A stretch of 64,000 nucleotides of DNA from Minisyncoccota bacterium (GCA_965204115.1 OZ241963.1:532622-596621); one strand, 5' to 3'; counted from the first letter of the stretch, positions 2,134 to 62,726 are shown. Program-made: numbers and translations. Notes: a model not told the origin generated them from the sequence alone.

Positions 2134-2172
2134 CCCGAAGAAAAAAGCCCGCACTTGTTAGGTGTCGGGCTT
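2134..2172 (-). terminator. Rho-independent terminator: hairpin AAGCCCGCAC/GTGTCGGGCTT followed by a TTTTTTCTTC run on the minus strand
   Basis: About 10-bp GC-rich stem with one bulge and a 7-nt loop, then a 6-U run read on the minus strand. Sits immediately 3' of the small ORF at 2187..2318. Confidence 0.5.
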
Positions 2173-2186
2173 GTTAGTGGTGGTTG

Positions 2187-2318
2187 TTAGTTTCCATCCT
2201 TAATACCTCTTTTTCTTCGTTTTTGCAGGTGCATTTGTAAGCACTTTGCTACAAAAACGACTGTTGCCACGGTGCAGGTGGCGATGACCAATAGTGGCAT
2301 TACTAGTTGCATTGACAT
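2187..2318 (-). CDS. Small 43-aa protein MSMQLVMPLLVIATCTVATVVFVAKCLQMHLQKRRKRGIKDGN: one predicted TM helix plus a basic tail, small membrane protein or type-I-toxin-like
   Basis: ATG at 2318..2316 is preceded by SD GGAGGTG at 2332..2326 with 7-nt spacing. A TACAAT -10-like box lies upstream. TAA stop is at 2189..2187 and an intrinsic terminator follows 15 nt downstream. Below the 60-aa cutoff of the ORF track. Confidence 0.45.
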   Translation of the reverse strand: MSMQLVMPLLVIATCTVATVVFVAKCLQMHLQKRRKRGIKDGN

Positions 2319-2428
2319 ACTATTTCACCTCCATTTGTATTGTACATCAATATTTGCTTTTTTAGGAGAGGTGGGGTATAGCTTTTTTCATTTTTTGCTG
2401 TTTTGCGTGCTGTATACTGTTTTTATGT

Positions 2429-5122
2429 ATGATTGCCGCTCTGAAGAAGAAGAAAATACCCAGCAGTGTGTCTAAGAAGCGGGGCGTTGGGGCAGTAAAA
2501 AAGAAAACTTCATCAAAATTTGCCGCCAAGGGAAAGGTCGGTGGTGATAGCGATTGGATACGGGTGCGCGGTGCGTCCACGCATAATTTGAAACAGATTG
2601 ATGTTGATATTCCGCGGAATACGATGACGGTGTGTACGGGGCTATCGGGTTCCGGGAAGTCGTCATTGGCGTTTGATACCATTTTTGCAGAGGGGCAGCG
2701 GCGGTATGTTGAGTCGTTGTCGGCGTATGCACGGCAGTTTTTGCGGCAGATGCAGAAGCCGGAAGTGCGGGAAATTACCGGATTGTCGCCTGCTATTTCT
2801 ATTGATCAAAAAAGCCGTTCTAATAATCCGCGGTCTACCGTCGCGACGATTACGGAGACCTACGATTACCTGCGGGTGTTGTTTTCTCGGGTTGGGGTGC
2901 CGTGTTGTCCGACCTGCGACACGGTGATTGAGCGAGTGTCGCAGGAGGAGATTGTGAAGCGGCTTGATAAGAAGATACAGCAGGAGAAGTGGTTTGAGAA
3001 GAACACGAAGGTAGTCGGTGTGCCGTATAATGATCGGGCGATTTCAATTTTTGCGCCGGTGGTGGTCGGGCGAAAGGGTGAGTACTATCAGCTGCTGTAT
3101 GATATGTTGCGTAAAGGGTACGAGCGGGCGCGGATTGACGGGGAAGAGTATAGTTTGCGGAATCGGATCACGCTTTCCAAAAACAAAAAGCACAATATTG
3201 ATATTTTCGTTGACTCGTTGTACCTGAGTGACTATGCGAAAGATCCGAAAGTGTTTCGTGAGCGAGTGTCTGATGCGGTTGAGCGGTCGCTGCATGAGGC
3301 GGACGGGCTGGTGCGGTTCGGGTATCCGGACGGTACTGATGCACTGGTGTCATCGCGGTTTTTGTGTCCGAAGTGCGGGTTTTCGTTTCCGGAGATTGAG
3401 CCGCGATTGTTTTCATTTAACTCACCGTACGGAGCATGTGAGGTGTGTAATGGGCTGGGACAGATTGATATGATTGATGACTCCGAGTGTTCTGCGTGTG
3501 AGGGCGGGCGTTTGCGGCCGGAGGCACTGCAGGTATTTTTACTGGACAAAAAAGGCGAGCGATTCAACATCAACACGATTATCGGGATGACCATTACCGA
3601 TGCATTAGCGTTTTTTGACGGGCTGCAGGTGACAAAGCAGCAGCAGGAGATTGTGGAGCCGCTGTTTAATGAGATTGTCGGGCGGATTTCATTTTTAGCG
3701 GATGTGGGGCTGGAGTACATGACGCTGGATCGGCGGGCAAACACGCTTTCCGGTGGAGAGGCGCAGCGGATACGGCTTGCCTCGCAGCTCGGGTCGGGGC
3801 TGGTCGGGGCGTTGTATGTGCTGGATGAGCCGACGATCGGCTTGCATCAGCGGGATAACGATCGGTTGATACAAACCCTGACGCGGCTGCGGGATTTGGG
3901 GAACACCATTATTGTCGTTGAGCATGATGAGGATACTATTTTTGCGTCTGACTACCTCGTTGACATCGGTCCCGGGGCGGGGAAGCATGGTGGCGAGGTG
4001 GTGGTGTCGGGCTTTCTTGAGTCGCTGCTGTCGGCGAAGCGGAATTCGTCCGGGTCACTGACTTTGTCGTACTTGCGGGGTGAGCGGCGGATTGAGGTTC
4101 CGGACAGGCGGCGGAATACGCAGGCGGGGCGGTTGGTGCTTACGGGTGCGTCGGCGAATAATATAAAAAATATGACGGTTGAGATTCCGCTCGGGCGTAT
4201 CACAACTATTACCGGCGTTTCCGGGTCGGGTAAATCAACACTGCTGTATGATTTGGTGTATAAGAATTTGCGGCATAAGCTGGAAAGGCGGCTGACGGTG
4301 GCGAAAGCATTTAACGCTAATCGATTCACAGGGTATGAGCATTTGAGTCGGGTGGTGTTGGTTGATCAATCGCCGATTGGGCGGACACCGCGCTCCACGC
4401 CGGTGACCTATGTCGGTGCGTTCACGCATATTCGGGACCTCTTTGCCTACACCGAGGAGGCGCGGTATCGCGGGTGGAAGCCGGGGCGGTTTTCGTTTAA
4501 TGTGTCAGGCGGGCGGTGTGAGAAGTGTCAGGGGAACGGGTCGGTGGCGGTTGAGATGCACTTTTTGCCGACCGTGCATGTGCTGTGTGATATGTGTTTC
4601 GGGAAGCGGTATACCAAGGAGGTGCTGGGTATACAGTATCGGGGGAAGAGTATTTATGATGTTTTGGCTATGCCGGTGGAAGAGTCCGTGCAATTTTTTC
4701 ACGACATACCGGCAATCCATGATCGATTGCGGACTTTGGAGGATGTGGGGCTCGGGTATTTGGAGCTCGGGCAGCCATCCACGACGCTTTCTGGCGGAGA
4801 AGCGCAGCGGGTGAAAATTGCCTCTGAGTTGTATCGCCCGAACACCTACAAGACGATATACCTGCTGGATGAGCCGACGGTCGGGCTGCATTATGAGGAT
4901 GTGGCGCGGTTGATAGCGATACTGAATCAGTTGGTTGATCGCGGGAACACGGTGTTGCTCATCGAGCATAACCTTGATGTGATTAAGTGCTCTGACTATG
5001 TTATTGATATCGGTCCGGAAGGGGGCTTGCGGGGCGGCACTGTCGTGGCGAAAGGCACGCCGGAGCAGGTGGCGAATGTCAAGGAGAGCCACACGGGGAA
5101 GTATTTGAAAAGGGTGTTGTAG
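2429..5122 (+). CDS. uvrA: Excinuclease ABC subunit A (UvrA) with a lysine-rich N-terminal extension of about 40 aa
   Basis: Two ABC ATPase modules: GLSGSGKSSLAFDTI and GVSGSGKSTL Walker A, plus LSGGE signatures. Zn-finger motifs CPTCD, CPKCG, CEVCNG and CEKCQGNG. 897 aa. Confidence 0.95.
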   Translation: MIAALKKKKIPSSVSKKRGVGAVKKKTSSKFAAKGKVGGDSDWIRVRGASTHNLKQIDVDIPRNTMTVCTGLSGSGKSSLAFDTIFAEGQRRYVESLSAYARQFLRQMQKPEVREITGLSPAISIDQKSRSNNPRSTVATITETYDYLRVLFSRVGVPCCPTCDTVIERVSQEEIVKRLDKKIQQEKWFEKNTKVVGVPYNDRAISIFAPVVVGRKGEYYQLLYDMLRKGYERARIDGEEYSLRNRITLSKNKKHNIDIFVDSLYLSDYAKDPKVFRERVSDAVERSLHEADGLVRFGYPDGTDALVSSRFLCPKCGFSFPEIEPRLFSFNSPYGACEVCNGLGQIDMIDDSECSACEGGRLRPEALQVFLLDKKGERFNINTIIGMTITDALAFFDGLQVTKQQQEIVEPLFNEIVGRISFLADVGLEYMTLDRRANTLSGGEAQRIRLASQLGSGLVGALYVLDEPTIGLHQRDNDRLIQTLTRLRDLGNTIIVVEHDEDTIFASDYLVDIGPGAGKHGGEVVVSGFLESLLSAKRNSSGSLTLSYLRGERRIEVPDRRRNTQAGRLVLTGASANNIKNMTVEIPLGRITTITGVSGSGKSTLLYDLVYKNLRHKLERRLTVAKAFNANRFTGYEHLSRVVLVDQSPIGRTPRSTPVTYVGAFTHIRDLFAYTEEARYRGWKPGRFSFNVSGGRCEKCQGNGSVAVEMHFLPTVHVLCDMCFGKRYTKEVLGIQYRGKSIYDVLAMPVEESVQFFHDIPAIHDRLRTLEDVGLGYLELGQPSTTLSGGEAQRVKIASELYRPNTYKTIYLLDEPTVGLHYEDVARLIAILNQLVDRGNTVLLIEHNLDVIKCSDYVIDIGPEGGLRGGTVVAKGTPEQVANVKESHTGKYLKRVL

Positions 5123-5249
5123 TTTTGTGGTACCGCTTTTTCATTGTCCTGTCGTGTTTTGTTGCGCTTGCGCAAAAAAGTTTTTCTTCACTTCGGTGTT
5201 TCTATTGTATTATACAGGTTAGACACTGTGTTCTAAGGAGGTGTGTGTG

Positions 5250-5519
5250 ATGGATGAGAATTCCGTTGCCGCTGCGGAAATATTTTTAATCGGGGAGCTG
5301 TCCCTGACCATACAGGATATTTCTCCCAGAAGTATCCCGAATGTTGTTGCTTCAGTGAAGAGTGCTGTTGCAAATTACCTGAAGGAGCACAATCTTTCTC
5401 TTCCTCTGAAAGTGCGTGGTGACTTGGAACGAGAGATCATCTTTGCTCTTATTGCCAGATCCGGACTTTCCCCCCGTGCTTTATCGGTAGTTGAGGACGC
5501 TGTGCTGGGTATTATATAG
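5250..5519 (+). CDS. Hypothetical 89-aa protein (MDENSVAAAEIFLIGELSL...)
   Basis: Strong SD AAGGAGG at 5235..5241, 8 nt before ATG 5250. Followed by an intrinsic terminator. No recognisable domain. Confidence 0.5.
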   Translation: MDENSVAAAEIFLIGELSLTIQDISPRSIPNVVASVKSAVANYLKEHNLSLPLKVRGDLEREIIFALIARSGLSPRALSVVEDAVLGII

Positions 5520-18714: not shown

Positions 18715-20865
18715 TTACTCCTGGTGAATTTTCTTATAGGTGAGGTACTGTTTGAGCGGGTGGTGGTGTTTTTTCTTGAGTGTCGGGTCTGCTCTGAGCG
18801 TTTCGGCGGCCTCTTGCCGTGCGAGGGCGGTGAGTTTCGGATTTTTGAGCGCTTCCATCACCAGGTCCGGGATGCCGGATTGGCGGATGCCGGCGAGTTC
18901 GCCGCTGCCGCGGGCGTCAAGGTCTTTCTGGGCGAGGGTGAAGCCGTTGTGGACGCTTGCGAAGGTTTTGAGACGGTGCAGCGTCTGTTCATTTTTACTG
19001 TCGGTGACGGCATAGCAGTAGGGCTGGTGCTCACTGCGTATGACCCTGCCGCGGATTTGGTGCAGCTGAGCAAGTCCGAAGCGTTCAGCGTGCAGGATGG
19101 TGATGATGGTGGCGTTGGGGACGTTCATCCCGACTTCCACGACCGTGGTGCAGACGAGGATGTTGATGTCGCCGCTGCTGAACCGTTCCATCACTTTCTG
19201 TTTTTCATTCGGTTTCATTCTGCCGTGAAGGATGCCGCTCTCAAGGTCGGGAAAGATGCTTTCTGTGAGGTGTTTGTATTCTTCTTCCACTGAGCGTAGG
19301 GGAGATTCTTCGTCCTCATGAACGCGAGGGCAGAGGACGTATGCCTGGTGTCCTTTATCAACCTCTTCCCGGATATGGTCGTATGCTTTTTGCATTTTTT
19401 TTGTGGTGATGAGCTCTGTTTTAACCGGCTTGCGTCCTTTCGGCATTTCTTCAATGATGCTGATGTCCAGGTCGCCGTAGATGGTGAGTGCGAGGGTGCG
19501 TGGTATGGGGGTGGCGGTCATGGAGAGGAGGTGGGGGGTGTGCGTGTCGGTTGCGTTGGTGAGTTTTTGGCGTTGGGCGATGCCGAAGCGATGCTGTTCG
19601 TCTATGATGACGAGGGCGAGGCGTTTGAATTGTATATCTTTCTGTATGATCGCATGGGTGCCGACGATGATGGCGATTTCGCCGGACGCGATCCATTTTT
19701 TAAGCTGTGTTTTTGATACCTTTGCCGGTTCGTTGGGGTTTACCTTTGACGGGTACCTCAGGCACTCTTTGCCGCTGATGAAGCCGATTTTTAGCGGAAG
19801 GTGGCTGAAGAGTTGTATGAGTGCTTCGAATTGCTGTTTGGCAAGGACTTCAGTGGGAGCAAGGTAGGCACACTGCGGCTTGCCGCTTGTTTTTTCTTCA
19901 GGGGTTGCTGCTACAACGCCGTGCATCACCGCTGCCGCGACCGCTGTTTTTCCGGAGCCGACATCGCCCTCCAATAGGCGGGACATCGGTTGGTTGCTGT
20001 GAATGTCTTTGAGGATTTCCGTGACCGCGCTCTTTTGGTCTTTGGTAGGTGTGAAGGCGAAGCGATTTTTCATAAAGTCATCGGTTTTTTGTGTGTCTAC
20101 GGAGAGGTTGTATGCCTGTGCCGTGAGGCGGGTGTTTTTTGCTGTCTGTTGCGTGATCTGCAGTGCGAAGGTTTGCTCAAATGAGAAGCGTTTTTTTGCG
20201 GCTTCGTACTCATTTTGTGTTGTTGGCTTGTGCATGTAGATGAGCGCATCGTAGCGGTTGGGGAGGTTGAGGCGGGTGCGGGTGTCTTTAGGTATCGGAT
20301 CGTCTATAGCTTTGATGTCGTCTTCTGCGAGGATTTTTTCTATTGTTGTGCGGAGCCAAAGGGAGGATATACCCTTTGTCTCAGGGTAGATGGCGATGAG
20401 CTCTTTGCGGATATCTGTGTCTGTGTCGCTGTTGTCGGTAAAAATATTTTCCGGCTGTTTTGAGGAGTGTTTGATGACTGGGTTGGTGAGATACGGTTTT
20501 TTCTCTCCGGATATTTTGCCGACCACTTCCACAATGTCCCCCTGGTGGTACTGTTTCGCGATGTAGGGCTGGTTAAACCACACGGCGCGAATTTTTTCAC
20601 CGTCGGCGTGGAGTGTCGCTTCAGCTATCATCACCCTTCTTTTGCCCCCGGTTCGACGCATACTGATTTTTTCTATAGTGCCGATAAGGGCCATTTTTTT
20701 TCCTTTTTCCAGGGTGCCGGTGAATTCTTGTGCCGCATCGGTATAGCGGTTGGGGAAGTGGTAGAGCAGATCGTGGACGGTCTCTATATTGAGTTTTTTG
20801 AGGGCGGTTTGGTGGGGTTTTTTGATGAATGGGAGGTGGTCAGTGAGCGGGTCTGTTGCTTGCAT
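18715..20865 (-). CDS. recG: ATP-dependent DNA helicase RecG
   Basis: N-terminal wedge/OB domain. SF2 helicase motifs EGDVGSGKTAVA, VIIDEQHRFG and SMTATPIPRT. Confidence 0.9.
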   Translation of the reverse strand: MQATDPLTDHLPFIKKPHQTALKKLNIETVHDLLYHFPNRYTDAAQEFTGTLEKGKKMALIGTIEKISMRRTGGKRRVMIAEATLHADGEKIRAVWFNQPYIAKQYHQGDIVEVVGKISGEKKPYLTNPVIKHSSKQPENIFTDNSDTDTDIRKELIAIYPETKGISSLWLRTTIEKILAEDDIKAIDDPIPKDTRTRLNLPNRYDALIYMHKPTTQNEYEAAKKRFSFEQTFALQITQQTAKNTRLTAQAYNLSVDTQKTDDFMKNRFAFTPTKDQKSAVTEILKDIHSNQPMSRLLEGDVGSGKTAVAAAVMHGVVAATPEEKTSGKPQCAYLAPTEVLAKQQFEALIQLFSHLPLKIGFISGKECLRYPSKVNPNEPAKVSKTQLKKWIASGEIAIIVGTHAIIQKDIQFKRLALVIIDEQHRFGIAQRQKLTNATDTHTPHLLSMTATPIPRTLALTIYGDLDISIIEEMPKGRKPVKTELITTKKMQKAYDHIREEVDKGHQAYVLCPRVHEDEESPLRSVEEEYKHLTESIFPDLESGILHGRMKPNEKQKVMERFSSGDINILVCTTVVEVGMNVPNATIITILHAERFGLAQLHQIRGRVIRSEHQPYCYAVTDSKNEQTLHRLKTFASVHNGFTLAQKDLDARGSGELAGIRQSGIPDLVMEALKNPKLTALARQEAAETLRADPTLKKKHHHPLKQYLTYKKIHQE

Positions 20866-21006: not shown

Positions 21007-21474
21007 GTGAATGCAATGCGTATTTTCGCACTTTTTGTTATAGTTCTGTTTGTCGCCGGTTGTGGTGTTGATAACCCCATTCAGTCAGGTCCCACGGATG
21101 CCCCTTCGCGTATTTCCCTTGATTCTGACGGGTCTGATTCTGTAGCCGAACATCAGCTGATGCCAGCTCAGTTTGATAACCCTCTGTCGTCTTTTGATTT
21201 TGACACCATTGATGGCGGGTTGAATCTTGAGCCGGATGAGGTTTATGATCCTGAGGGCACCGGAGATTCTCCCACTCCTGAGGATACGGATGTGGATGAT
21301 GATGCTCTTGAGCCGGAGGTTATCGAGCCGGAGGGTGACGATGAACCTGAACCCGATTCTGACAATGAGCCTGATTCCGACGACGATCTCGAGCCGGAGG
21401 TTGTTGGCGGTGGTGATCCTGATAGCGGTGCAGGCGGTGATGTGGACGAGTTTGGTATTGAGGTCGTTGAATGA
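21007..21474 (+). CDS. Lipoprotein with an acidic low-complexity (D/E/P) region
   Basis: SD AAAGGAGGTG 6 nt upstream. Lipobox VAGCG. (E/D)PE(P/V)DSD repeats. Confidence 0.55.
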   Translation: MNAMRIFALFVIVLFVAGCGVDNPIQSGPTDAPSRISLDSDGSDSVAEHQLMPAQFDNPLSSFDFDTIDGGLNLEPDEVYDPEGTGDSPTPEDTDVDDDALEPEVIEPEGDDEPEPDSDNEPDSDDDLEPEVVGGGDPDSGAGGDVDEFGIEVVE

Positions 21475-53217: not shown

Positions 53218-54054
53218 CTACTCTTCAATCTCGTAGGTGATGATAGCGGTTTTTTGTATTTGTCGTTCACCTTCGTGTATCGGTATTGCTATTGATTGCG
53301 GTCCATCATCCAATGCAACTGCGGCGGATTCTACTCTTCGATAGGGATATGGGTTGTCTTCATAGAGGTTAATGCGGGCAATTTTTTTGAGGCGGAAGCC
53401 GGACAGGCGGGCAATTTTATGTGCCCGTCTTTTTGCGTCGTGTATTGCTTGTATTGACGCGATGTTTTCCGCATGTTTTTTGTCGTCATCACACGGGGTA
53501 AATATCGGTCCGTCTATTGTTTCCGGGTTGAGGTCGGTGAGGTCGGCGAGTATGACGCTGACATCTTCAGTGTTTCTGATTGTTATGGTGGTGGTGTGGG
53601 ATACGCGATAGCCGATGAGATCAGGTATTTCGTTACTGATGAATTGGGATGTTTTCGGGTTATTGCGTCGATATTCCGGGCGGACGGTGTAGGCGATTGT
53701 TTGTATGTCTTTATCGGCGATGCTGTGTTGGGTGAGTGCCGTGTAGGTGTTTTGTGCCTGTGTGGCTACTGCGTCGCGTGCTGTGGCGACATCTTCCTGT
53801 ACGGAAGAGAACGAAATGGTGATTTCTGCGACACTGTTTGTGATGAAATATTCTCCGGTTCCGGCGAATGAAAGCGTTGGTCGTTCCTGGGTGGTTTCCA
53901 GGTACTTATGGATGCCCCATGCCCCGGTGAGGAGAAATAGTGCGAGTGCGATACACACTCCCATACGCATGGTAATTTGCATTGCTTCACACGCTGATAT
54001 TGTTGTGTTTGTTTGTGTGCTGTGCTTCGCGACACTCTTTTTTTTGGTGGTCAT
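53218..54054 (-). CDS. SIMPL/DUF541-like secreted or membrane-anchored protein
   Basis: N-terminal TM or signal anchor; two-domain alpha/beta pattern resembling SIMPL-domain proteins. Weak assignment. Confidence 0.5.
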   Translation of the reverse strand: MTTKKKSVAKHSTQTNTTISACEAMQITMRMGVCIALALFLLTGAWGIHKYLETTQERPTLSFAGTGEYFITNSVAEITISFSSVQEDVATARDAVATQAQNTYTALTQHSIADKDIQTIAYTVRPEYRRNNPKTSQFISNEIPDLIGYRVSHTTTITIRNTEDVSVILADLTDLNPETIDGPIFTPCDDDKKHAENIASIQAIHDAKRRAHKIARLSGFRLKKIARINLYEDNPYPYRRVESAAVALDDGPQSIAIPIHEGERQIQKTAIITYEIEE

Positions 54055-59708: not shown

Positions 59709-60377
59709 ATGAACACCAAGAAACTTGCAGAACGAAAAGCGCGGGTGCGGAAACTGATTCGTAAACTAAAAACAGTGTTTCCCGACGCGAAACTTGCGCT
59801 GAAGTACCGGACACATTGGCAGTTGATGGTGGCGGTGCAGCTGTCTGCTCAGTCAACAGACAAAAAAGTGAATGAAATTGTTCCTGAGCTGTTTGAGCGA
59901 TATAGGACAGTGCATGATTTTGCGGATGCGGATTTGGCTGAATTGCAGGAGGCGATTAGTTCGGTGCTGTACTACAAAAATAAAGGGAAGAACATCAGGG
60001 CTGCGGCTCAAAAAGTGGTCGCCGATTTTGGCGGACGATTGCCGCGAACTATGGAGGAAATGCTGACCCTACCCGGGGTTGCACGGAAGACGGCGAATGT
60101 GGTGCTCGGCACGCTGTTTCAGATATATGAGGGGATTGTCGTTGATACCCACATGATCCGGTTTGCGCGGCGGTTTGCTCTGTCTGACTTTAAAGACGCG
60201 GTGCGGATAGAGCGGGATTTAATGGAAATTGTGCCGAAAAAAGATTGGTATCAGTTTTCTTACTGGGTGGTTGATTACGGTCGGCTCTACGGTAATCCGC
60301 GTGGGAAGCGGGAATTGCACGAGCAGGATCCGCTTATAGCTATCTACCCAAAAGCAAAAAACTACTGGCCTTCGTAG
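59709..60377 (+). CDS. nth: Endonuclease III-like HhH-GPD DNA glycosylase without the C-terminal Fe-S cysteine cluster
   Basis: HhH-GPD motif LPGVARKTANVV...VVDTHMIR. No Cys-X6-C-X2-C-X5-C in the C-terminus. Confidence 0.85.
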   Translation: MNTKKLAERKARVRKLIRKLKTVFPDAKLALKYRTHWQLMVAVQLSAQSTDKKVNEIVPELFERYRTVHDFADADLAELQEAISSVLYYKNKGKNIRAAAQKVVADFGGRLPRTMEEMLTLPGVARKTANVVLGTLFQIYEGIVVDTHMIRFARRFALSDFKDAVRIERDLMEIVPKKDWYQFSYWVVDYGRLYGNPRGKRELHEQDPLIAIYPKAKNYWPS

Positions 60378-61096
60378 AACCCCGTTCTCGTCCACTCGCC
60401 GATTGCGGTGCGTTTGATGTGTGTGGTGACGGTCGGATAGTTGATGCAGTTGCCGATTTCATGGACGATGGCGCGGATGTAGGTGCCGCCGGATGTGGTG
60501 ATGTTCGCTGTGTAGTGTTGCACGACTTGATCGGGGAGTGCTTGCCATTGCTGTATGATTTTTTTCTGCCGGAAATCGCCGGTTACTTTTTGTATGCTGT
60601 CAATAATTTTTGTTTTGAGAGCATTGATGGTGGTTGTTTGTGTTTCAAGCAAGGTGTGCTTTTTTATCTGTACGGTTTTAGTCGGGCGATCAATAGTGTG
60701 CAGGGTATTCTCCCGTGCGTATGCAAACAACGGTTTGCCGTTCACTGTTTTTGATGCGTAGGGCGGGTAGGGGAGCGTGAGTGTATCGGCGATGGACTCG
60801 ATGATCTGTTGTATTTTTTTGTCAAGAGGTTTTTGTGGGTAGTGTGTGTTGGTGATTTTACCCAGTCCGTCGTATGAGTCGGTGCTGATGCCGACGATGA
60901 ATGAGTACTCGTAGGCCTTGGTGAGATTGTGATACCGCTTCGCATTTTTACACTCTTCATTTTTGAGAATGAGCAGCAAACCCTCTGCCATAGGGTCCAG
61001 ACGACCGGCGTAGGTATAGGTGTCAGCTGTGGTGTCGAATAGCCGCTGCATACACTGCAGCGGTGTTTCGCCGATGTGTTTGTGTACGATATGCAT
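60362..61096 (-). CDS. truB: tRNA pseudouridine(55) synthase TruB-like
   Basis: AGRLDPMAEGLLLIL catalytic-Asp motif and GTYIRAI motif. Confidence 0.8.
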   Translation of the reverse strand: MHIVHKHIGETPLQCMQRLFDTTADTYTYAGRLDPMAEGLLLILKNEECKNAKRYHNLTKAYEYSFIVGISTDSYDGLGKITNTHYPQKPLDKKIQQIIESIADTLTLPYPPYASKTVNGKPLFAYARENTLHTIDRPTKTVQIKKHTLLETQTTTINALKTKIIDSIQKVTGDFRQKKIIQQWQALPDQVVQHYTANITTSGGTYIRAIVHEIGNCINYPTVTTHIKRTAIGEWTRTGFYEGQ

Positions 61097-62279: not shown

Positions 62280-62413
62280 ACCTCCTTAGGTTATTTCTGT
62301 GTATAGTTATGCCATAAAATCAATAAAAAGTCAAAATGTACAGTACGCTTGTCAATAGTGGGGTGGTGTGGTATATTATGTAGCAACGATAGTAAAGAAA
62401 AGGAGGTTCCAAG

Positions 62414-62548
62414 ATGTCTGCGATGTCTTTATTGGCGCTTGCGCTTCTTCCCGTACTTTTTGTTGTACACAAGATTGGTTGCCGGATGCGTAGAATCCGT
62501 CTCCACGATCGGGTTTGGAAGCGAGGAGTGATTAGAGGAGTGTTTTAA
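62414..62548 (+). CDS. Small 44-aa protein MSAMSLLALALLPVLFVVHKIGCRMRRIRLHDRVWKRGVIRGVF: one TM plus an Arg-rich tail
   Basis: Strong SD AAGGAGG 7 nt upstream of the ATG. Intrinsic terminator 28 nt downstream of the TAA. Below the ORF-track size cutoff. Confidence 0.45.
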   Translation: MSAMSLLALALLPVLFVVHKIGCRMRRIRLHDRVWKRGVIRGVF

Positions 62549-62575
62549 TTTGTTCAATTTACATCACCGTTAATA

Positions 62576-62606
62576 AGACCTGGCTGTTTAATGCCGGGTC
62601 TTTTTT
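62576..62606 (+). terminator. Rho-independent terminator
   Basis: AGACCTGGC-tgtttaat-GCCGGGTCT followed by TTTTTTG. Confidence 0.5.
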
Positions 62607-62642
62607 GTTGGTGTATGGTCGCCACCTCGGTGGCGGAATCTG

Positions 62643-62726
62643 TGCTCAGGAGAGGACTTGAACCTCCATGGGATTGCTCCCACACGCCCCTCAAGCGTGC
62701 GCGTCTACCAGTTCCGCCACCTGAGC
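62643..62726 (-). tRNA. tRNA-Leu (anticodon GAG), class II with a long variable arm
   Basis: Acceptor GCTCAGG/CCTGAGC, anticodon loop TTGAGGG, variable arm GGGAGCAATCCC, T loop TTCAAGT. No encoded CCA. Confidence 0.85.

What the first reader, a model, noticed from the sequence alone, without database searches (positions are those of the whole stretch)
2134..2332. Unannotated 43-aa ORF (hydrophobic, basic tail) with SD, promoter-like box and terminator: type-I-toxin-like cassette
GGAGGTG 7 nt before the ATG, one TM helix followed by KRRKRGIKDGN, and a hairpin plus U6 terminator 15 nt after the stop. It is a compact standalone unit between a secreted-protein gene and uvrA. The architecture matches Hok/Fst/TisB-type toxins or small regulatory membrane peptides such as AcrZ and KdpF.
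Basis: seen in the sequence. Interest (0 to 1): 0.55.

Follow-up and report, generated by a model that had tools for sequence, protein, structure and literature searches.

The report
Conserved tiny membrane-protein gene beside uvrA
The 43-codon reading frame is a real, separately transcribed gene for a tiny single-helix membrane protein, conserved only in a few close relatives of this ultra-small (CPR/Patescibacteria) bacterium; nothing yet shows that it is a toxin.

Summary
On the minus strand there is a -10-like box (TG-TACAAT, 2346-2339), GGAGGTG (2332-2326), a 7-nt spacer, ATG 2318, 43 codons, stop at 2189-2187, and a hairpin plus U6 (2172-2141). The genome is a Paceibacteria/Kaiserbacteria-like CPR bacterium.

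Protein databases hold only the ORF itself. Fetching DNA around close uvrA relatives recovered two uncalled orthologs at the same place, divergent from uvrA. One is 38 aa (L082, uvrA 97% identical); the other is 64 aa (L083, uvrA 88%). Both keep the -10 box, SD, spacing, ATG, reading frame, hydrophobic helix, two cysteines, polybasic tail and hairpin stem.

Against L083, dN/dS is 0.38 at dS about 1. Neutral simulation gives P about 2e-4 for keeping these protein features.

The type-I-toxin reading stays unproven:
- no match to any toxin, AcrZ or KdpF family
- no convincing conserved antisense promoter
- a predicted leader of only about 14 nt
- SD no more paired than in shuffled controls
- no related copy in the 64 kb

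Verdict: an orphan, lineage-restricted small membrane protein of unknown function, of modest interest. A second, unrelated cassette of the same design lies at 62349-62608.

The parts
2339..2346 (-). -10-like promoter box TG-TACAAT. The predicted transcription start is about 2333-2331, right at the SD.
   Evidence: Sequence. It aligns with TACAAT in L082 and with GG-TATACT in L083, and is the only strong -10-like hexamer on the sense strand shared by all three orthologous loci. The same -10 / short spacer / GGAGGTG / start design precedes a 152-aa lipoprotein-like gene at 21016. Function as a promoter is inferred.
2326..2332 (-). Shine-Dalgarno GGAGGTG, 7 nt before the ATG.
   Evidence: Invariant in L082 and L083 with the same 7-nt spacing. 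Most genes in this window lack an SD.
2187..2318 (-). 43-codon ORF plus stop. It encodes one TM helix (about residues 5-27), conserved C15/T19/F22/C26, and the polybasic tail KRRKRG followed by IKDGN.
   Evidence: Orthologs are L082 559->443 (38 aa) and L083 4887->4693 (64 aa). dN/dS against L083 is 0.38. Neutral simulation gives P about 2e-4.
2141..2172 (-). Intrinsic-terminator-like hairpin (10 bp with one bulged A, 7-nt loop) plus a U6 run.
   Evidence: Fold. Both stem arms (AGCCCGACAC / GUGCGGGCU) are invariant in L082 and L083 while the loop varies, and a U-rich run follows in all three. Similarity between the window and L082 ends just beyond it.

Best explanation
A genuine, monocistronic gene for a very small single-pass membrane protein, restricted to a narrow clade of Paceibacteria/Kaiserbacteria-like CPR bacteria.

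Proposed mechanism. Conservation of each element is shown; its function is inferred.
1. An extended -10-type promoter (TG-TACAAT) starts transcription right at the SD, giving an mRNA of about 190 nt that ends at the hairpin/U6 terminator.
2. The strong SD, rare in this largely leaderless genome, drives translation of a 43-aa peptide.
3. By the positive-inside rule, the peptide inserts with a 4-5-residue N-terminus outside, one TM helix, and the polybasic tail (net +5 in the window, +13 in L083) at the cytoplasmic face of the membrane.
4. The residues identical in all three orthologs include C15, T19, F22 and C26, which have i, i+4, i+7, i+11 spacing and so lie on one face of the helix.

I therefore think it most likely acts through helix-helix contact in the membrane, with itself or with a partner protein. 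That would make it a small accessory or modulatory membrane subunit rather than an RNA-controlled toxin. The C-terminal end beyond KRRKRG is dispensable or variable (38, 43 and 64 aa).
For: Anatomy.

Conservation:
- The orthologous cassette sits directly divergent from uvrA in L082 (uvrA 97% identical) and L083 (88%).
- It keeps the -10 box, a 6-nt gap, GGAGGTG, a 7-nt spacer, ATG, the frame, the TM helix, both Cys, the basic tail and the hairpin stem.

Coding selection:
- Against L083, the small ORF has dS 1.01 and dN 0.39. For uvrA the values are dS 1.17 and dN 0.065.
- Differences by codon position are 15/9/16, with position 2 the fewest.
- Random substitution at the observed divergence kept an open frame with at least the observed TM hydrophobicity in 0.34% of 200,000 trials. 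It kept start, frame, hydrophobicity and both Cys in 0.022%.
- The L083 frame stays open for 64 codons.

Other support:
- One helix predicted by AlphaFold2 and by hydropathy.
- The downstream neighbour differs in all three genomes and has its own promoter, so the unit is autonomous.
- Against a regulated-toxin design: predicted SD accessibility equals that of shuffled controls, there is no convincing conserved antisense -10 box, and there is no related copy in the window.
Against: - Only three orthologs exist, two of them nearly identical, so dN/dS<1 is only marginally significant by my own rough count (about 26 nonsynonymous and 14 synonymous differences observed, against about 31 and 9 expected).
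- Synonymous codon usage is strongly atypical for this genome: score -0.34, lower than 99.7% of real-gene windows and than 98% of spurious ORFs.
- Between the window and L082 the pattern is not a coding one. There are 4 nonsynonymous changes and 1 synonymous change. Synonymous sites are far more conserved (1 of 27) than in uvrA (pS 0.28). This points to an extra nucleotide-level constraint or a local recombination tract.
- No partner protein is indicated by gene context.
- No expression data exist.
- The helix-face argument rests on very few sequences.
Confidence: 0.55

Rival explanations
1. Type I toxin-antitoxin module. The peptide is a membrane-damaging toxin, and its translation is held in check by an undetected antisense RNA that overlaps the SD and the 5' half of the ORF, or its 3' end.
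For: - The peptide fits the generic profile used to search for type I toxins: under 70 aa, one TM region, a charged C-terminus, and a stand-alone location away from operons (PMC2887945).
- The family is lineage-restricted and missed by gene callers in 2 of 3 genomes, as is common for such toxins.
- The 5' part of the ORF plus the SD and -10 box (about 100 nt) has 0-1 substitutions between the window and L082, although uvrA synonymous sites differ by 28%. An overlapping antisense RNA could explain this.
- The predicted transcripts fold more stably than shuffles, z -2.7 to -3.6.
- It lies at the edge of a variable region that in relatives carries zeta-toxin, KAP NTPase and methylase-HNH genes.
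Against: - No similarity to any known toxin family.
- The only antisense -10-like hexamer inside the ORF shared by the three loci is weak: AATAGT/AATACT, 4-5 of 6, with no T1 and no TG.
- Sequence to the left of the hairpin, where a convergent antitoxin promoter would sit, is unrelated in the three loci.
- The leader is about 14 nt, and SD pairing is no stronger than in shuffled controls. SD pairing partners differ among orthologs.
- No related copy or tandem duplicate in 64 kb.
- An unprotected strong SD on a toxin gene would be hard to tolerate.
- The held paper library has no paper that mentions both type I toxins and Patescibacteria.
Confidence: 0.18
2. The conserved block is primarily a non-coding RNA or regulatory DNA element next to the uvrA promoter, and the ORF is incidental.
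For: - Atypical codon usage.
- Conservation at synonymous sites, and a non-coding-like substitution pattern, against L082.
- Stable predicted folds and an invariant hairpin stem.
- Weak sub-threshold Rfam hits on the hairpin: STnc310 at 23.6 bits against a 40-bit threshold, and Thr_leader at 20.6 bits against 55.
Against: - At dS about 1 the nucleotide sequence has diverged by 36%. Yet the ATG, SD spacing, open frame (37 aligned codons, 64 in total in L083), TM hydrophobicity, both Cys and the basic tail persist. P is about 2e-4 under neutral substitution.
- Predicted internal RNA pairs are only partly kept in L083, and only 3 of 45 pairs show compensatory changes.
- No Rfam family reaches its threshold.
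Confidence: 0.1
3. A DNA-damage or stress-induced membrane peptide co-regulated with uvrA from the shared divergent promoter region (TisB/DinQ-like logic).
For: The small ORF is always the first gene divergent from uvrA. The start codons are 101-113 nt apart in all three genomes, while everything beyond its terminator differs.
Against: - The spacer between the two -10 boxes is the least conserved part of the region, with 7 mismatches and 9 gap positions in 60 nt against L082.
- I saw no conserved palindromic operator or LexA-box-like motif. This was an inspection by eye of alignment A3, not an exhaustive search.
- Linkage may simply reflect the boundary of a variable island. In L084-L087 other genes abut uvrA, and in L001, L002, L089, L090 and L093 thrS does.
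Confidence: 0.07
4. A chance ORF in an AT-rich intergenic region.
For: The ORF is short, its codon usage looks like that of spurious ORFs, and other ORFs of 30-67 aa occur in the same region.
Against: Conservation of all signals and of the frame in three genomes. The composite is expected 0.06 times per 64 kb.
Confidence: 0.02

Closest known systems
Type I toxins with a TM helix and a short basic C-terminus (for example Ldr/Fst superfamily, PepA1/SprA1, BsrG/TxpA; also TisB, DinQ, Hok)
   Same: Length 38-64 aa, one hydrophobic helix, charged C-terminal end, stand-alone cassette with its own promoter and terminator, narrow phylogenetic range, often missed by gene callers (general features as in PMC2887945).
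   Different: No sequence similarity. No convincing antisense RNA gene. A very short leader instead of a long structured 5' UTR. No conserved SD-sequestering fold. No related copy in the window. Toxicity untested.
Small accessory or regulatory membrane proteins (AcrZ, KdpF, CydX, MgrB, MgtS)
   Same: Under 50 aa, single TM helix, no catalytic domain. A conserved helix face suggests action through helix-helix contact.
   Different: No homology (Pfam AcrZ and KdpF models not hit). Not encoded in or next to an operon for a plausible partner complex. The downstream neighbours differ in every genome. The tail is much more basic.
Second cassette in the same window (62349-62608, 44 aa, P0122)
   Same: Same design: sigma-70-like promoter, strong SD, ATG, N-terminal hydrophobic helix with a Cys near its end, strongly basic tail, strong hairpin plus U6.
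   Different: Not detectably homologous (hhalign probability 0.4%). Shorter hydrophobic segment, longer leader (about 25 nt), different neighbours (tRNA-Leu). Conservation not tested.

Membership tests
Type I toxin-antitoxin system | Small (<60-70 aa) hydrophobic protein with a predicted TM helix and a polar or charged C-terminus | tested here: met
   43 aa. Best 19-residue KD mean 2.54. AF2 predicts a single helix at residues 6-40. Tail net charge +5. Criterion from PMC2887945.
Type I toxin-antitoxin system | A cis- or trans-encoded antisense RNA antitoxin that base-pairs with the toxin mRNA | tested here: inconclusive
   No convincing conserved antisense -10 box. The only shared one inside the ORF is AATAGT/AATACT. 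The flank beyond the hairpin is unrelated among loci. No Rfam hit at threshold. Sequence alone cannot exclude an sRNA, so RNA-seq is needed.
Type I toxin-antitoxin system | Toxin mRNA with a structured leader or fold that blocks translation until processed | tested here: not met
   The predicted leader is about 14 nt because the -10 box ends 6 nt before the SD. SD unpaired probability is 0.22-0.28, the same as in shuffled-body controls. SD pairing partners differ between orthologs. This rests on a predicted, not mapped, TSS.
Type I toxin-antitoxin system | Toxicity (growth arrest or membrane damage) on overexpression | not testable with these tools
   Needs an expression experiment.
Type I toxin-antitoxin system | Homology to a known toxin family (Hok/Gef, Fst/Ldr, TisB, Ibs, ShoB, TxpA/BsrG and others) | tested here: not met
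   Pfam and NCBIfam at E<=10 returned only TMEM132_C, at 15.3 bits against a 27-bit cut-off. PADLOC: none. PDB: none. The 5.8e9 and 1.84e9 protein searches found only the ORF itself.
Type I toxin-antitoxin system | Frequent tandem or multiple copies (not obligatory) | tested here: not met
   No paralog by tblastn or blastn in the 64-kb window, nor by HMM in 93 related loci beyond the two orthologs. The rest of the genome was not available.
AcrZ / KdpF-type accessory membrane peptides | Sequence membership in the AcrZ or KdpF families | tested here: not met
   No Pfam or NCBIfam hit.
AcrZ / KdpF-type accessory membrane peptides | Genetic linkage or co-regulation with the partner complex (kdpFABC operon; the acrAB regulon) | tested here: not met
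   It is monocistronic with its own terminator. The downstream genes differ in the three genomes: a secreted protein, a 79-aa protein, and a 184-200-aa protein. The only constant neighbour is the divergent uvrA gene.
Lipoprotein / secretory signal peptide (considered) | Basic n-region, hydrophobic core, lipobox [LVI][ASTVI][GAS]C | tested here: not met
   No K/R in the first 24 residues. The residue before C15 is T (I in L083). The sequence after the Cys stays hydrophobic, and the ORF ends 28 residues later.

The most novel reading that the evidence does not exclude
This would be the first type I toxin-antitoxin-like (or TisB/DinQ-like, uvrA-linked) membrane-peptide module in a CPR/Patescibacteria genome. 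Together with the second look-alike cassette at 62349-62608, it would mean these reduced episymbiont genomes keep several RNA- or stress-controlled membrane peptides. The unexplained conservation of synonymous sites in the 5' half of the ORF between the window and L082 would then be the footprint of the antisense RNA.
Probability: 0.15. Interest if true: 0.6.

Novelty: new member of a known kind. Interest (0 to 1): 0.3.

Why it matters
Small membrane proteins are systematically under-annotated. Here two of the three orthologs were never called, and in one genome a spurious opposite-strand ORF was called instead. That is why searches of billions of proteins saw the gene as a singleton. The case shows that synteny-guided DNA comparison can rescue such genes in CPR bacteria, which have tiny genomes and mostly unknown membrane biology. 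If the peptide proved to be a regulated toxin or a uvrA-linked stress peptide, it would extend that biology to a superphylum where none has been described. As it stands it is an orphan small membrane protein of unknown function.

Tried and rejected
- Homology route. Pfam, NCBIfam, PHROGs, PADLOC and PDB profiles, phmmer against 1.84e9 representatives, two word-indexed searches of 5.8e9 proteins (single sequence and 3-sequence profile), tblastn against plasmids and phages, and a viral-contig scan all found nothing beyond the ORF itself.
- Genome-collection scan with uvrA (80 loci, at most 77% identity). No ortholog of the small ORF; thrS abuts uvrA in the two closest loci inspected, L001 and L002.
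- Metagenome scan with the neighbouring secreted protein. It returned one distant domain homolog in an unrelated context.
- Leader peptide or attenuator for the downstream secreted-protein gene. Rejected: that gene has its own 11/12 sigma-70 promoter, the downstream gene differs in each genome, and the Rfam Thr_leader hit is far below threshold.
- L088, a 29-aa ORF upstream of uvrA (HMM E = 0.077). Rejected as a homolog: it is hydrophilic and only its K-rich tail matches.
- Upstream anti-SD (CACCTCTCC, 2372-2364). Not conserved in L082 or L083.
- 5'-3' pairing of the SD with CACCACU after the stop. Weakened in L083 and not favoured in the single-sequence folds.
- Lipoprotein signal peptide, or an N-terminal fragment of a longer gene. 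No support.

Full report
**1. What is in the sequence**

The finding lies on the minus strand. Read 5'->3' on that strand, it contains:
- a -10-like box, TACAAT (2344-2339), preceded by TG (2346-2345)
- six bases, then GGAGGTG (2332-2326)
- seven bases, then ATG (2318)
- 43 codons: MSMQLVMPLLVIATCTVATVVFVAKCLQMHLQKRRKRGIKDGN
- TAA (2189-2187)
- 14 bases, then a hairpin, AAGCCCG-A-CAC / loop CUAACAA / GUG-CGGGCUU (2172-2145), running into a T6 run (2146-2141)

The 71-nt segment around the hairpin has an MFE of -17.1 kcal/mol (centroid -13.4), z = -2.4 against shuffles. The consensus scanners missed both the promoter (no -35) and the terminator, the latter probably because its stem is bulged.

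The left neighbour is a large signal-peptide protein gene (ATG 1961, minus strand). It has its own 11/12 sigma-70 promoter at 2037-2009. The right neighbour is uvrA (2429-5122, plus strand).

The word "unannotated" is not accurate. An identical 43-aa product is already in the public protein collection, sourced from NCBI and ENA, on a 661,662-bp contig, without a name.

**2. Organism and genome style**

The closest uvrA loci all come from Paceibacteria/Kaiserbacteria-type Patescibacteria (CPR) MAGs with genomes of about 0.6-0.75 Mb.

Most long ORFs in the window have no SD. Nine of 42 have a TAYAHT -10-like box ending 3-14 nt before the start codon, against 1.5% of random positions. uvrA is one of them: TG-TATACT at 2411-2418, ATG at 2429. 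A strong SD is therefore a minority signal in this genome. The same '-10, short gap, GGAGGTG, start' design precedes a 152-aa lipoprotein-like gene at 21016.

**3. Is it more than chance?**

ORF length alone is not persuasive in this 36-42% GC intergenic region.
- The mixed codon score (-0.23) is like that of spurious ORFs.
- The synonymous-codon score (-0.34) is lower than 99.7% of real-gene windows.

However, first-order Markov simulations give only 0.06 ORFs per 64 kb that combine GGAGG, ATG, 30-80 aa and a TM-like segment. Comparative data then settle the matter.

**4. Relatives**

Protein searches found only the ORF itself:
- 5.8e9 clusters, single sequence and profile
- phmmer against 1.84e9 representatives

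The GTDB-representative scan with uvrA reached only 77% identity, and there thrS abuts uvrA. A protein search with uvrA revealed closer relatives at 80-97% identity. I fetched their contigs.

Two of them carry the cassette at the same place, divergent from uvrA, and in neither was it called as a gene.

*L082 (uvrA 97% identical).* The ORF runs 559->443 and encodes MSMQLVMPLLVIATCTVATIVFAVKCLQTHLQKRRKRG (38 aa). A 1-nt deletion creates a stop right after KRRKRG.

*L083 (uvrA 88% identical).* The ORF runs 4887->4693 and encodes MLAEYVTTVFIVAICTVSTILFIAKCLSMQARKWKKRKNKRFRNMKIDPVRRRLKNDIKRQPDT (64 aa). Its stop lies in the hairpin loop.

In L083 the signals read GG-TATACT / ACAAAC / GGGAGGTG / AACAAAA / ATG. 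That is the same architecture and spacing as in the window. The hairpin arms AGCCCGACAC and GUGCGGGCU are identical in all three loci, while the loop varies.

Similarity between the window and L082 stops just beyond the hairpin, and the downstream gene is different in each genome. Other relatives lack the cassette upstream of uvrA:
- L084-L087 (uvrA 89-90% identical) have other genes abutting uvrA
- L088 (87%) has an unrelated 29-aa hydrophilic ORF there
- L089, L090 and L093 (84-86%) have thrS there

A six-frame HMM search of all 93 fetched loci found only the two orthologs.

**5. Coding or not?**

*Window against L083.* There are 40 differences in 111 nt, distributed 15/9/16 by codon position. 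The small ORF has dS 1.01 and dN 0.39, so dN/dS is 0.38. uvrA has dS 1.17 and dN 0.065.

I simulated random substitution at that divergence in 200,000 trials:

| Feature kept | Fraction of trials |
|---|---|
| Open frame | 19% |
| Open frame with at least the observed TM hydrophobicity | 0.34% |
| Start, frame, hydrophobicity and both Cys | 0.022% |

The aligned residues identical in all three are M1, V6, A13, C15, T16, V17, T19, F22, K25, C26, L27, K33, K36 and R37. C15, T19, F22 and C26 have i, i+4, i+7, i+11 spacing, so they lie on one helix face. That last point is my inference.

Hydropathy and AlphaFold2 agree on one helix. By the positive-inside rule, the tail (+5 in the window, +13 in L083) is cytoplasmic. 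This is established knowledge applied by inference.

I conclude that the ORF is a real protein-coding gene (about 0.85).

**6. What does not fit neatly**

Between the window and L082 the ORF has 4 nonsynonymous changes and 1 synonymous change, all in codons 20-29. Synonymous sites are far more conserved (1 of 27) than in uvrA (pS 0.28). The first 50 codons of uvrA are also unusually conserved at third positions: 3 of 50, against 8-10 of 50 in most other bins.

The five changes fall in the apical part of a predicted 11-bp internal hairpin, CGUUUUUGUAG / CUGCAAAAACG. One of them turns a U-G pair into C-G. This hairpin is only partly kept in L083.

Possible explanations are an overlapping antisense RNA, mRNA structure, selection on 5' coding regions, or a local recombination tract. 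I cannot decide among them.

**7. Tests of the toxin reading**

- Family models. No known toxin family matches, nor do the AcrZ or KdpF models. PADLOC and PDB give nothing.
- Leader. If the -10 box is right, it is about 14 nt.
- SD accessibility. Predicted unpaired probability (0.22-0.28) equals that of shuffled controls. The SD's predicted pairing partner differs in each ortholog.
- Antisense promoters. On the antisense strand, the -10-like hexamers shared by the three loci are four. One is uvrA's own TATACT box. A second (TATGAT/TATGGT) overlaps the uvrA start. A third is the complement of the small ORF's -10 box. The fourth is a weak AATAGT/AATACT inside the ORF.
- Copy number. No related copy is in the window.
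- Literature. The held library has no paper that mentions both type I toxins and Patescibacteria.
- Search criteria. The generic criteria the peptide does meet (short, TM, charged C-terminus, isolated locus) are those of Fozo et al. 2010. That paper states that they yield many false positives (PMC2887945).

The toxin reading therefore remains possible (about 0.15-0.2) but unsupported. The AcrZ/KdpF analogy fails on both homology and operon linkage, although 'works through helix-helix contact in the membrane' remains my preferred mechanism.

**8. Verdict**

This is a real, autonomous small gene, restricted to a narrow clade, encoding an N-out/C-in single-pass membrane peptide with a polybasic tail. 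Its function is unknown. It is most likely an accessory or modulatory membrane protein, less likely an RNA-controlled or stress-induced toxin.

It is a new (orphan) member of a well-known kind of gene, so interest is modest. The most useful by-products are:
- the demonstration that two of three orthologs were never called
- a second, non-homologous cassette of identical design at 62349-62608

Noticed in passing
window 62349-62608 (+): A second stand-alone cassette of the same design. It has -35 TTGTCA (62349-62354), a 17-nt spacer, TG-n-TATATT (-10 at 62372-62377), SD AAGGAGGT (62400-62407) and ATG 62414. The ORF is 44 aa, MSAMSLLALALLPVLFVVHKIGCRMRRIRLHDRVWKRGVIRGVF (hydrophobic N-terminal helix, Cys, very basic tail). 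A strong hairpin plus U6 follows at about 62575-62608 (z -5.5), then tRNA-Leu(gag) at 62642-62726 (-). It is not homologous to the 2318-2187 ORF (hhalign probability 0.4%) and has no Pfam hit. It is called in the public record as singleton P0122. Conservation in relatives was not tested.
   Followed up: partly
window, starts of many genes, e.g. 2429, 18715-20865(-), 30210, 37958, 42581, 49725, 53218-54054(-), 57358, 60362-61096(-): Most genes lack an SD. 9 of 42 long ORFs have a TAYAHT -10-like box ending 3-14 nt before the start codon, against 1.5% of random positions. This suggests widespread leaderless or near-leaderless mRNAs, uvrA included (TG-TATACT 2411-2418, ATG 2429).
   Followed up: partly
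L083 1-5000, L084 1-5000, L085-L087 1-5000 (upstream of uvrA): The region upstream of uvrA is a variable hotspot in this genus. The probable ancestral order is thrS-uvrA (L001, L002, L089, L090, L093). Closer relatives instead carry different inserts, including Zeta_toxin, KAP_NTPase, N6_N4 methyltransferase with HNH, AAA_14/DUF4143/nSTAND-like NTPase and Peripla_BP_6 genes.
   Followed up: partly
window 2187-2580 vs L082 443-810: Locally low divergence. Synonymous differences are 1 of 27 sites in the small ORF, and third positions differ at 3 of 50 in the first 50 uvrA codons, against pS 0.28 for uvrA overall. The spacer between the two promoters (2341-2400) is the most diverged part, with 7 mismatches and 9 gap positions. 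Unexplained: it could be an antisense RNA, mRNA structure, 5'-coding constraint or a recombination tract.
   Followed up: partly
L083 4829-5035 (+) and L082 443-559 (-): Annotation artefacts. In L083 the gene caller called a 68-aa ORF on the strand opposite to the conserved small ORF. In L082 nothing was called there. Neither ortholog's sequence is in the 15-billion-protein collection.
   Followed up: yes
window, both strands: GGAGGTG occurs 31 times against 8.0 +/- 2.8 expected from dinucleotide shuffles. Most copies are inside genes on the coding strand.
   Followed up: no
window 2429-2560 (uvrA N-terminus): UvrA carries a lysine-rich N-terminal extension of about 30 aa (MIAALKKKKIPSSVSKKRGVGAVKKKTSSKFAAKGKVGG...) before the conserved DWIRVRG. 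It is shared with L083, and L082 matches over the first ~20 codons aligned, but it is absent from more distant relatives such as L002 (MATAKKKKTEDDWIRIRG).
   Followed up: no
window 5237-5519 (+): An 89-aa ORF (ATG 5250) with GGAGGTG 6 nt upstream, in the uvrA-tuf spacer. It has no homolog in the 12 closest loci by tblastn, although several relatives have unrelated small genes called at the same position.
   Followed up: partly
window 2202-2245 (-): A predicted 11-bp hairpin inside the ORF, CGUUUUUGUAG / CUGCAAAAACG (codons 21-24 pairing with 31-34). All five window-vs-L082 substitutions lie at or inside it, and one converts a U-G pair to C-G. It is only partly conserved in L083 and may be a by-product of Phe/Lys codons.
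   Followed up: partly
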